Positions 12,001 to 15,000 of a stretch of 34,173 nucleotides of DNA are shown here, one piece after another. This stretch comes from Deltaproteobacteria bacterium. Its GTDB lineage: Bacteria > Myxococcota > JACRCW01. The stretch spans positions 1-34,173 of the forward strand of contig JACRCW010000103.1 in NCBI GenBank assembly GCA_016218805.1, given 5' to 3'. Made by a program: the position numbers. Position 1 is the stretch's first letter, and every line of letters begins with the position of its first letter.

Positions 12001-15000
12001 CGGGAATGCGGAAGCCGAAATACGGCCCATCCCGGCTGATGTCCCACGGCTTGAGTCCCTCCTTCAGCCACGTCTCGGCAAAGTTGCGCACCTCACCCTG
12101 CACGCTGCCTGCGCTGTCCAGCCAGGCGCGCAGCGGGGCTTCGTTCTTGGGAAGGTCATAGAAGTAATGAATGGAATTGCGGGAAACGGGCTTTTCACCG
12201 GTGAGCACGCTTTTGGGGTCAATGAGATCCCGCGGGTCATACGTGCGGCCGCACTTCTCACAACTGTCCCCGTACTGGTCCGGTGACTTGCACACGGGGC
12301 AGGTGCCCTTGATGTAGCGGTCCGGCAGGAAGCGCCCCGCCTTGTGGTCAAACATCTGCTCCACGTCCTTCTGGAAGATGTGCCCCGCCGCACGGGCCTT
12401 CTCGTAGAAGGTCTCCGCCCACCGCCGGTTGGTGTCCGAATTGGTTGACCCATAATGGTCATGGTGCACCAGGAAATCCTTGAAATCCCGCACGTGCTGC
12501 TCGGCGGACTGGCGCACCAGTTCCTCCGGCGTGATGCCGCGCTTGGCCGCGTTGACCTCAATGGCGGTGCCGTGCGTGTCATCCGCGCACAGGAAGATGG
12601 CGTCATTGCCGGCCAGCCGGTGCCCGCGGACAAACACGTCCACCTGCGTGTGTTCCAGCATGTGGCCCAGGTGGATGGGGCCGTTGGCGTAGGGCAGGGC
12701 GGCCGTGACCAGGATGCGCTTGGACATGGATGAGAACCTCCGTCGGGGGACTCACTAGGCCAGCATTGCCCGGCGCGTCACGGGCGGATCAACATTGCCC
12801 CGGGACTCCCCCCTTCCCTATGGTGCGCGCGCACGGACGCACCAGCAGGGGGCCCAGCGTCGCGGACGGGTGCGCGTTCCGCGGACGGAGTGACCGTATG
12901 AGGCTCGGCGACCTGCTCGTCCAGGCTGGCTACATCACCGAGGACCAGCTGATGGCGGCCCTGGTGGAACAGCGGAAGTTTGGCGGGCGGCTGGGCGACA
13001 TCCTGGCGCAGAAGGGCTTCTGCTCCGAGGACGCCGTGGCCCGCGCACTGGCCAAGCAGCTGGGGCTCCCGTTTGTGGACCTGGCGCGCGCGCCCATCCC
13101 GCCCAAGCACGTGCTGGCGCGCCTGCCCATTGACGTGTGCCTCCAACTCAACGTGGTGCCGTGCGTGTTCCGGGAGAAGGACAACACGCTGGTGGTGGCG
13201 CTGACCAACCCGCGTGACAAGGACACGGTGAAGAAGCTGGAGGACACCACGCGCTGGAAGATCCAGGTGGCGGTGGCGGGGACCAAGGGCATTGCCAAGG
13301 CGCGGGCCGCTTTCTACGGGCACAAGGATGAGATGTCCCTGGGCGAAGAAGCGCCCGACGCGAGCCTGCTGGACACCCAGGGCCGCACCGTCCGCAAGCG
13401 CGCCGAGGACGTGGAGCGGGAATACGTGGCCCGCAAGGCGCAACGCAGCTCATCCGCCAATGCCATTCCCGCCGTTCCTCCGGGGATGGTCCCCGCCGTC
13501 CCGGTGGCGCCGCCCGTCTCTCCCGGGTGGGGTCCACCTCCGCCGCCGCCGCACCCCATGGTGGCGCAGGGTTACCCGGTAGGCCCGCCGCCGCCCGCGG
13601 TGGCGCAGGGTTACCCGGTGGCTGCCACGCCGCCACCACCGCCGCTCGTGCAGGGGACGGTGCAGGAGATCCGCGGATTCACGGATTCGCAGGGGCGCAC
13701 CGCCATCAAGAGCGTGCAGGCGATCATGGAGGAGGCGCGGCAGAAGAAGCTGGCGGAGGCCGCCCGCCTGGAGGCGCAGGCGGAAGAGGCCAAGAAGGCC
13801 AAGAAGAAGCCGCCCAAGCTGCCGGCTGACGCCGAGTCTGACGCATTTGCCCCGGCGGGTTCCAAGGCGCCGGTGGACACGGCGGGGCTGGCAGACCCCG
13901 CGGTGACCACGGCGGAGGACGCCGCCGAGCCCGGGCCCACGCGCGAGGAACTGCTGGCCACCATTGAAGCGCTGCGCGCCGAGGTGCATGCGCTCAAGGC
14001 GGTGGCGGTGGTCCTGTTCCGCAAGGGGTACGTCACCCCCGCGGAGTACCAGGCCCAGATGGCGAATTCCGTGACTTCCGCCTGAGCGGCTCTGACGCCG
14101 CCACCCACGCGGAGAATGCCGCGAAATCCAGCACACGGCCATGCCAGCCCGGCGTCATGTCCACCCATTTCCAGAGATTCATGCTGTCCGTGGGCGTGCG
14201 GATGCACGGCAGTGCGGGCGGGGGGGAGCTGAACGCGCCGTCCGGCCCGCGCATGTGTGACCGGTCCGAGGCAAAGTGCGCCCGCAGCGTGGCGACGTCC
14301 ACCACGCGGAACCACGGGTGCCACACCGGGTCCGCCGTGGCCACGTGCGGGAACGCGCGCGCGAGGTACTCCGCCGCCGCGCACGGAAACGCCAGCGTGC
14401 TGTCCAGGTCAAACACCTGCCAACTCCCACCGCGGCGCCCCACCACCACGACGTGATAATCCCAGCAGACCGGCTCGGCGGGGGAGGGCGCGGCGCGCTG
14501 GCAGAACACGGGACAGGCCCGCGCGGGGTTGGAGATGAACACCACGTGCACGTCGTCCGCGGCCAGGGCGGGGTCCGCGGCCAGCCGCCAGGCGTTCTCT
14601 TCACAGTAATGGGCGGCGTACCAGGCGGGCCGGGCGGTCACGCGCCCGTGCCTACCACGCCCCCGCGCGATCCGCGCGCGCACCCCCGCCCGCGTGGCTG
14701 GATTCCCCTTGCCGATCAACAGCGTGCCCCGCGCGCCACCGCGGGGTGTTGCCCGCGGTAGCCGTCCTGCTAGCGTCCGCCCGCCCCCCGGGAGGGCCCG
14801 CGATTAACGTCATTTGGCGCGGTCTCTGCCCCGCTCCCCATGCCCGGGGTGCGGAGCCCTTCAGTGGCCTCCCGGGGCGCGGAGCCATGCGCATCGCGTT
14901 CACGCACAATCTCAAGCTCACGCAGGATGCCTCAGAAGCGGAGTTTGACACTCCGGCCACCGTGGATGCCGTCACCCGGGCGCTGCAGTCCCTGGGTCAC

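What a model noticed while it worked through the whole genome (the two positions that open the first line are those of the whole stretch)
14033..14641. Eukaryote-type N-terminal glutamine amidase (NTAQ1) beside Bpt, Aat and ClpS: a possible three-tier bacterial N-degron p [...]
g02062 is a full-length homologue of animal NTAQ1, the enzyme that turns N-terminal Gln into Glu, and the genome also encodes the Asp/Glu leucyltransferase Bpt, the Leu/Phe-transferase Aat and two ClpS adaptors. I read this as a complete hierarchy Gln to Glu to Leu-Glu to ClpS/ClpAP, that is, a tertiary destabilising residue in a bacterial N-degron pathway. Tertiary residues and N-terminal amidases are so far known only from eukaryotes (my knowledge), so this would extend the bacterial pathway and hint at a bacterial source of NTAQ1.
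Evidence so far: pfam.tsv: Nt_Gln_amidase 162.9 bits, model 1-180 of 184, residues 8-176 of 202. Call 107: 38-39% identity over 163-177 aa to zebrafish, human, mouse NTAQ1 (E 5e-30); the sequence keeps YCEEN (Cys13), WDYHV (His63), FDLDS (Asp78/80), which I recall as the Cys-His-Asp triad region of human NTAQ1 (recalled, from no call). Partners: bpt g02825 on C95 (ATE_N 62, ATE_C 109 bits), aat g00054 on C3 (233 bits), clpS g04123 on C143 and g01166 on C39. relatives.tsv: family in at least 593 of 189,784 bacterial genomes and 0 archaea. Call 106: 39 of 401 Myxococcota genomes (16/20, 8/11, 6/6 in three families). Call 109: Bpt found in 31 of the 38 other NTAQ1-bearing genomes (misses: all 6 of one family an [...]
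(Added by a program. Inside this text positions count along the whole contig: contig position 1 is position 1 of the stretch shown here. "Call 12" and the like, gene names such as g00115 and contig names such as C1 are that model's own, and its searches are not shown. The text may have been shortened before it was handed on; [...] marks where a part breaks off. The agent that wrote the report below was given it as the finding of a first reader that could run no searches.)

Follow-up and report, generated by a model that had tools for sequence, protein, structure and literature searches.

The report
Bacterial N-terminal glutamine amidase, arginine-type tagger
This bacterium has an intact copy of the enzyme that animals and plants use to convert a protein's first glutamine into glutamate, and its likely partner looks like the eukaryotic arginine-tagging enzyme, not the known bacterial leucine one, so a tagging route studied in eukaryotes may also run in some bacteria (untested).

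Summary
Observation confirmed. 14033-14641(-) encodes a full NTAQ1-family amidase (PF09764 163 bits; TM 0.80 to human NTAQ1). The triad and the five residues that hold a free alpha-amino group are invariant in 114 of 114 prokaryote-genome and 24 of 24 eukaryotic rows, so Nt-Gln to Nt-Glu activity is likely (~0.88). The proposed route needs correcting. The genome's 'Bpt' has the donor pocket of eukaryotic Ate1 (S/S/E/L, against Ate1 S/S/E/Y and Bpt A/A/Q/L), including the Glu needed for Arg transfer. The likelier route here is Gln, Glu, Arg-Glu, then perhaps Aat and ClpS-ClpAP. Such Glu-pocket transferases are widespread (93 of 135 sampled rows, biased sample). The link between the two enzymes is not shown: no bpt/ate or clpS lies near the gene in 117 loci. 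An ATE-family gene is found in only 32 of 39 and 33 of 50 amidase-bearing genomes, and a complete genome lacks it. Eukaryotic NTAQ1 sits on one side of a 99/96 branch; the tree has no root. Bacterial members were already counted in a 2023 table; my paper searches found no functional reading, and this scan's look-up by sequence found nothing earlier.

The parts
14033..14641 (-). NTAQ1-family N-terminal glutamine amidase, 202 aa, single domain starting 7 residues after the start codon, so no room for a signal peptide
   Evidence: AlphaFold2 mean pLDDT 94; Foldseek TM 0.80, rmsd 1.9 to human NTAQ1
14600..14605 (-). Cys13 (nucleophile, human Cys28) and Glu14 (human Glu29, alpha-amino network)
14453..14464 (-). 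Trp60-Asp61-Tyr62-His63 (human Trp78, Asp79, Tyr80, catalytic His81)
14408..14410 (-). Asp78 (catalytic, human Asp97)
14252..14257 (-). His129-Met130 (human His148, Met149; hold the substrate's alpha-amino group)
12901..14085 (+). Convergent MshEN-domain gene whose 3' end overlaps the amidase's 3' end by 53 bases; context only, not conserved in the other loci
14887..18311 (+). Divergent pair: tandem-duplicated D-Ala-D-Ala-ligase-like ATP-grasp gene and a Peptidase S58 gene; context only, no recurring link to the amidase seen

Best explanation
The gene encodes an active cytoplasmic cysteine amidase. [quoted passage not shown] Its substrates most likely arise by endoproteolytic cleavage (inference). 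In this genome the new Nt-Glu is a substrate for the single ATE-family tRNA-dependent transferase (G000 C95, about 6681-7439), which makes Gln a tertiary residue (inferred; about 0.5). That transferase most likely adds Arg, as eukaryotic Ate1 does, and not Leu as Bpt does (inferred from the donor pocket; about 0.65). Arg-Glu-proteins could then get Leu/Phe from Aat and go to ClpS-ClpAP; this is the weakest step. Shown by computation: the family, the fold, the residues and the presence of the genes. Not shown: any activity, substrate or link between the steps.
For: C13, E14, W60, D61, Y62, H63, D78, H129 and M130 are invariant in 114 of 114 prokaryote-genome rows and 24 of 24 eukaryotic rows. 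PMC11168063 (sections 2.1-2.5 read) names Glu29, Asp79, Tyr80, His148 and Met149 as the alpha-amino contacts that fix Gln specificity. Transferase: it aligns without gaps to K. lactis Ate1 over motif A. The positions of Ser255/Ser273/Glu277/Tyr289 read S/S/E/L, and Lys304 and Arg80 are kept. PMC9351520 (sections 7 and 8 read) gives A/A/Q/L for Bpt and shows E277A/K nearly or fully dead and E277D active; PMC11283454 (passages) puts human E387 in the Arg pocket. Control: 6 of 6 gammaproteobacterial enzymes read A/A/Q (4 exactly A/A/Q/L). A fungal ATE1 also reads S/S/E/L. Ser/Thr at position 255 goes with Glu in 15 of 19 and with non-Glu in 0 of 42 unselected rows; 74 of 74 rows selected only for Ser/Thr had the Glu. 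The model matches human and yeast ATE1 at TM 0.77-0.79. The relative G011 has the same pair. clpS-clpA, two clpP and aat are present. ATE-family genes in amidase-bearing genomes against background: 32 of 39 vs 168 of 362 in the own phylum; 7 of 8 vs 8 of 109 in the class of G415; 4 of 8 vs 20 of 200 in Acidobacteriota.
Against: No linkage: 0 bpt/ate, 0 clpS and 1 aat in 117 amidase loci (878 kb, flanks 1.5-6 kb, single-query tblastn); 0 amidase, aat or clpS in 108 ATE loci. 7 of 39 and 17 of 50 amidase-bearing genomes have no ATE-family gene, among them the complete Sulfidibacter chromosome (G440) and 6 of 6 genomes of family f24. The enrichment is confounded by kinship and genome size (7 of 9 vs 8 of 27 families, p 0.02, not independent). 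The Glu pocket does not track the amidase: 9 of 29 amidase-positive vs 5 of 12 negative hand-picked genomes. The pocket state changes about 10 times on the tree, one clade of Glu-types is rejected (p-AU 3e-6), and the G000 enzyme nests among non-Glu rows (SH-aLRT 84-94); only 3 independent pairs exist on supported branches, too few for a test. [quoted passage not shown] Arg-Glu-ubiquitin made in E. coli was recovered at 48-96% of product (PMC13478464, passages), which does not suggest fast onward tagging.
Confidence: 0.4

Rival explanations
1. Stand-alone N-terminal housekeeping. The amidase removes Nt-Gln from peptides and fragments before it cyclises to pyroglutamate (chemistry recalled, from no call), keeping them open to aminopeptidases. 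Any later tagging is incidental.
For: The amidase is kept intact in lineages without any ATE-family gene (f24 6 of 6, three Holophagae genomes including a complete one). Neighbours are variable. The Aat proteins of ATE-less genomes look ordinary. G000 shows neither pyroglutamyl peptidase nor glutaminyl cyclase (92% complete).
Against: ATE-family genes are over-represented in three phyla sampled. aat is in 76 of 80 and clpS in 77 of 80 amidase-bearing genomes (no background measured). No peptide-uptake or peptidase operon recurs beside the gene. The pyroglutamate-enzyme check covered 5 genomes only.
Confidence: 0.3
2. One reading: Gln to Glu, then Leu-Glu by a Bpt-type L-transferase, then ClpS-ClpAP.
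For: All genes are present. Bpt is the only characterised bacterial ATE-family activity I found. The G000 enzyme's nearest relatives are mostly non-Glu types. This route stays plausible for amidase-bearing genomes with A/x/Q pockets, such as family f6 and Gammaproteobacteria.
Against: The G000 enzyme differs from Bpt at 3 of 4 donor-pocket positions and carries the acidic residue that Ate1 needs for Arg. All linkage objections above apply too.
Confidence: 0.17
3. The amidase, with or without the transferase, modifies a few specific proteins or small peptides for signalling or biosynthesis and not for degradation.
For: Lineage-specific partners are regulatory or modifying: an FHA protein in 15 loci, fusions to an LMW phosphatase (2 proteins) and a PrmA-like methyltransferase.
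Against: No partner recurs across phyla. The pocket is identical to that of an enzyme that reads mainly the N-terminal backbone.
Confidence: 0.1

Closest known systems
NTAQ1 / WDYHV1 (PF09764; PDB 4W79, 8JJF series)
   Same: Fold (TM 0.80), length, triad and alpha-amino pocket.
   Different: Bacterial host with no ubiquitin N-recognin expected (recalled); patchy distribution (39 of 401 in the phylum, 1 of 201 Acidobacteriota); activity untested.
[quoted passage not shown]
   Same: ATE_N plus ATE_C, about 250 aa, acceptor-pocket Arg and catalytic Lys kept.
   Different: Donor pocket S/S/E/L against A/A/Q/L; not next to aat, whereas 7 amidase-bearing proteobacterial genomes have aat and bpt adjacent (coordinates).
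Eukaryotic Ate1 arginyltransferase (PDB 7WFX, 8TZV)
   Same: 3 of 4 Arg-pocket residues including the essential Glu; best structural matches.
   Different: About half the length, covering 36-53% of the Ate1 chains by TM score; Leu in place of Tyr289; tRNA donor untested.
Protein-glutaminase of Chryseobacterium (Gln_deamidase_2)
   Same: Bacterial Cys-His-Asp glutamine deamidase of the same superfamily.
   Different: TM only 0.33, 12% identity. That it is secreted and acts on internal Gln is recalled.

Membership tests
NTAQ1 (PF09764) | Profile match over the whole domain | tested here: met
   163 bits vs cut-off 27, model 1-180 of 184
NTAQ1 (PF09764) | Cys-His-Asp triad | tested here: met
   C13/H63/D78 = C28/H81/D97
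NTAQ1 (PF09764) | Alpha-amino pocket E29, D79, Y80, H148, M149 | tested here: met
   E14, D61, Y62, H129, M130; 114 of 114 and 24 of 24 rows. 80 loci were found with patterns that contain C, E, W, D, Y, H; D78, H129 and M130 were not selected for
NTAQ1 (PF09764) | Same fold | tested here: met
   TM 0.80, rmsd 1.9; next family TM 0.33
NTAQ1 (PF09764) | Deamidates Nt-Gln, not Nt-Asn or internal Gln | not testable with these tools
   needs an assay
Bpt L-transferase (G000 C95 gene) | ATE_N and ATE_C domains, acceptor Arg, catalytic Lys | tested here: met
Bpt L-transferase (G000 C95 gene) | Uncharged donor pocket A/A/Q/L | tested here: not met
   S/S/E/L; gammaproteobacterial controls read A/A/Q/L or A/A/Q/V
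Ate1 R-transferase (G000 C95 gene) | Acidic residue at the Glu277 position | tested here: met
   ungapped alignment to K. lactis E277 and human E387 (chain-number offsets of 4 and 1 counted by me)
Ate1 R-transferase (G000 C95 gene) | Full S/S/E/Y pocket | tested here: inconclusive
   3 of 4; Leu at 289, as in one fungal ATE1
Ate1 R-transferase (G000 C95 gene) | Eukaryotic extra domains, about 500 aa | tested here: not met
   252 aa
Ate1 R-transferase (G000 C95 gene) | Uses Arg-tRNA | not testable with these tools
   needs an assay
Bacterial N-degron pathway with a tertiary residue | ClpS, ClpA, ClpP and transferases present | tested here: met
Bacterial N-degron pathway with a tertiary residue | Amidase linked or fused to pathway genes | tested here: not met
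   no search of longer forms of the amidase was run beyond the top 150
Bacterial N-degron pathway with a tertiary residue | Amidase confined to genomes with an Asp/Glu transferase | tested here: not met
   7 of 39 and 17 of 50 lack it, one a complete genome
Bacterial N-degron pathway with a tertiary residue | Nt-Gln destabilises a reporter in vivo | not testable with these tools
   needs an experiment

The most novel reading that the evidence does not exclude
Some bacteria run the upstream half of the eukaryotic Arg/N-degron pathway: Nt-Gln deamidation by an NTAQ1 orthologue, then Nt-arginylation by a minimal 250-aa Ate1-type enzyme, coupled through Aat to ClpS-ClpAP (a four-tier route). Many bacterial 'Bpt' genes in this phylum, Planctomycetota, Nitrospirota and others would be arginyltransferases, and eukaryotes would have taken both enzymes, with their specificity ready-made, from such bacteria.
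Probability: 0.25. Interest if true: 0.88.

Novelty: new variant of a known kind. Interest (0 to 1): 0.66.

Why it matters
The sources read list only primary and secondary destabilising residues for bacteria (five secondary ones) and describe arginylation as eukaryotic, with prokaryotic ATE1 homologues of unknown significance. A working bacterial NTAQ1 would add a tertiary tier. A bacterial enzyme that transfers Arg would be a half-size model of Ate1 and would reopen where the eukaryotic pathway came from: a published view is alphaproteobacterial (PMC7779560), yet the one alphaproteobacterial enzyme I sampled lacks the Glu. Both predictions can be tested at once in a published E. coli reporter system (PMC13478464).

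Tried and rejected
Eukaryotic contamination: rejected. Recent transfer from one eukaryote lineage: not seen; the bacterial rows are not nested among the eukaryotic rows. Archaeal member: one locus labelled archaeal (L091) is almost identical to a gammaproteobacterial one with the same neighbours, so I do not count it. Aat replacing the missing ATE gene: 16 genomes (21 genes, one extraction failed) aligned, no distinctive change seen by eye. NTAN1 family: 0 of 5 genomes, but the control rang nowhere, so uninformative. Phages and plasmids: no match. Promoter and terminator scan: none. Sequencing runs: no RNA holder listed; no reads laid. Amidase-transferase complex prediction: never ran, so no result. 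Search for long ATE forms: 4 hits, none with an amidase domain, but only 509-2000 aa and 8000 candidates were scored, so a fusion of about 430 aa would be missed. Wang et al. 2009 (PMC2749074) is not held; it and Graciet et al. 2006 were not read and may discuss bacterial homologues. bioRxiv supplements were closed, and SI Fig. S5 of PMC9351520 (an alignment picture) was not seen; it may include bacterial sequences. Rows dropped: NTAQ tree 4 duplicate loci; careful tree 50 of 138 rows; ATE tree 43 Planctomycetota rows and P0379; AU test 43 of 138 rows. Searches used hand-picked genomes (50 of 87 named loci; 30 of 38 phylum genomes); at least one genome is counted twice and two may be mixed bins.

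Full report
Observation. The minus-strand ORF 14033-14641 (202 aa) is real. It matches PF09764 at 163 bits over model positions 1-180 of 184 and human NTAQ1 chains at E 1e-30. The AlphaFold2 model (pLDDT 94) superposes on human NTAQ1 at TM 0.80; the next family scores 0.33. It is single-copy in a genome 92% complete, has the codon pattern of its neighbours, and lies between a convergent MshEN gene and a divergent ATP-grasp/peptidase pair.

What the enzyme does. PMC4214742 (parts 1-2 of 4 read) gives the triad Cys28/His81/Asp97. PMC11168063 (parts 2-3 of 7 read) shows that Glu29, Asp79, Tyr80, His148 and Met149 hold the substrate's free alpha-amino group and so set the distance that selects Gln. 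All eight residues are invariant in 114 of 114 rows from prokaryotic genomes and 24 of 24 named eukaryotic rows, and in the 85-row homologue alignment (hand-picked from 120 hits, mostly unlabelled). Three of the eight were not part of any search pattern. I infer an active N-terminal Gln amidase in the cytoplasm (about 0.88).

Distribution and origin. The family is in 39 of 401 genomes of the phylum, 373 loci of the genome collection (80 seen), and is rare elsewhere: 2 of 111 and 1 of 201 in two samples centred on carriers. Carriers include Polyangiaceae, Holophagae, Obscuribacterales, Lentisphaeria, Planctomycetota and some Gammaproteobacteria. Bacterial rows are as diverse as eukaryotic ones (median identity 0.39 each, 0.34 between). 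The 24 eukaryotic rows lie on one side of a branch (SH-aLRT 99; 99/96 in a 50-row subset whose bootstrap had not settled). The bacterial backbone is unresolved and there is no outgroup, so a bacterial source is allowed, not shown.

Link to the N-degron genes. Neighbours vary. In 117 loci there is no bpt/ate or clpS and one aat about 3 kb away; in 108 ATE loci there is no amidase. By genome, ATE-family genes are in 32 of 39 carriers against 168 of 362 others in the phylum, 7 of 8 against 8 of 109 in the class of G415 and 4 of 8 against 20 of 200 in Acidobacteriota. These are kin, mostly with large genomes; by family it is 7 of 9 against 8 of 27. 17 of 50 diverse carriers lack the gene, among them a complete chromosome. 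aat is in 76 and clpS in 77 of 80 carriers (no background). The amidase therefore does not need the transferase, but often has one. Two small clades show protease links: a Lon-N-domain gene overlapping the amidase start in 3 Lentisphaeria loci and a CHAT protease just upstream in 3 Holophagae loci.

The partner is probably not a leucyltransferase. PMC9351520 (sections 7, 8 read) defines the Arg-donor pocket of K. lactis Ate1 as Ser255/Ser273/Glu277/Tyr289, shows the acid at 277 is needed, and gives Ala/Ala/Gln/Leu for Bpt. The G000 enzyme aligns without gaps there and reads S/S/E/L. Six gammaproteobacterial enzymes read A/A/Q/L or A/A/Q/V, which checks the column choice. Six families of the phylum have S/S/E/Y or T/S/E/Y (f7, f18, f20, f22, f28, f32) and so does f34; many Planctomycetota and some Nitrospirota, Acidobacteriota and Thermodesulfobacteriota rows do too. 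Ser/Thr at 255 and Glu at 277 go together (89 of 93 against 0 of 42; 74 rows were selected for Ser/Thr). Against: the state switches about 10 times, a single Glu clade is rejected, the G000 enzyme nests among non-Glu rows, independent pairs are too few to test, and Glu-types are no commoner in amidase carriers (9 of 29 against 5 of 12). NCBIfam still names the whole bacterial family 'arginyltransferase', for both pocket types, so the name is no evidence. With only 3 eukaryotic rows the ATE tree cannot place their origin. I put Arg transfer at about 0.65.

Mechanism. Most likely: a cleavage exposes Nt-Gln; the amidase makes Nt-Glu; the transferase adds Arg; Aat, which accepts Nt-Arg, may add Leu/Phe; ClpS delivers to ClpAP. 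clpS-clpA, two clpP and aat are present. The last steps are weak: E. coli Aat gives under 20% conjugation with an acidic second residue, and Arg-Glu-ubiquitin accumulates in E. coli. The Arg tag may have another reader or no degradative role.

What is known. Table S1 of PMC10318531 counts 198 bacterial, 1 archaeal and 1103 eukaryotic members of PF09764 without comment on them (passages and supplement part 1), and automatic names already call some bacterial proteins N-terminal glutamine amidohydrolase. Ten paper searches and passages of PMC11441550, PMC3692480, PMC7779560, PMC13478464, PMC13592012, PMC13515050, PMC9884297, PMC11283454 and bioRxiv 2021.07.26.453911 gave no functional reading of bacterial NTAQ1 and no bacterial arginyltransferase; most subscription papers are not in the library. 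The scan's earlier notes hold nothing on this protein; two phage ATE/ClpS notes and one unrelated note did not bear on the reading.

Verdict. A real, intact NTAQ1 orthologue in a bacterium, known as a count but apparently not interpreted. New variant of a known kind; interest 0.66.

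Noticed in passing
G000:C95 about 6681-7439 (L118, L182); L160, L162-L169, L171, L178, L192-L271: A widespread class of bacterial ATE-family enzymes with the eukaryotic Arg-donor pocket (S/T-S/G-E-Y), with or without the amidase; predicted arginyltransferases. 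Worth a finding of its own.
   Followed up: partly
G000:C95:7439-8677 (L182:4940-6178): A 413-aa Peptidase_S51-like gene whose start overlaps the stop of the transferase.
   Followed up: no
G000:C39:24584-25561 (L121): Second ClpS domain at the C-terminus of a longer ORF; the front part has no Pfam match and looks, by eye only, like Clp N-domain repeats. G011 has six ClpS-domain hits.
   Followed up: partly
L079, L081, L083: Stand-alone Lon substrate-binding-domain gene overlapping the amidase start (GTGA) in Lentisphaeria.
   Followed up: partly
L045, L068, L098: CHAT-AAA-TPR protease gene directly upstream of the amidase in Holophagae, genomes with no ATE-family gene.
   Followed up: partly
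L013, L016, L019-L021, L023-L025, L027, L031-L033, L035: queC/queD - FHA protein - amidase gene row in family f6.
   Followed up: no
P0134, P0162, P0178, P0189, P0111: Amidase fused to an LMW phosphatase (2), a PrmA-like methyltransferase, a UDP-glucose pyrophosphorylase and DUF309.
   Followed up: no
window 18688-31212: Nitrous-oxide reductase cluster: nosZ with a long C-terminal part, dihaem cytochromes c, two nosD, ferredoxin-type genes and an ABC transporter.
   Followed up: no
window 14887-18311: ATP-grasp protein with two D-Ala-D-Ala-ligase domains followed by a Peptidase S58 gene.
   Followed up: no
L091 and L060: Amidase loci whose record labels (archaeon; Oligoflexales) clash with near-identical sequences from Gammaproteobacteria and Melainabacteria; probably mislabelled or mixed bins.
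   Followed up: partly
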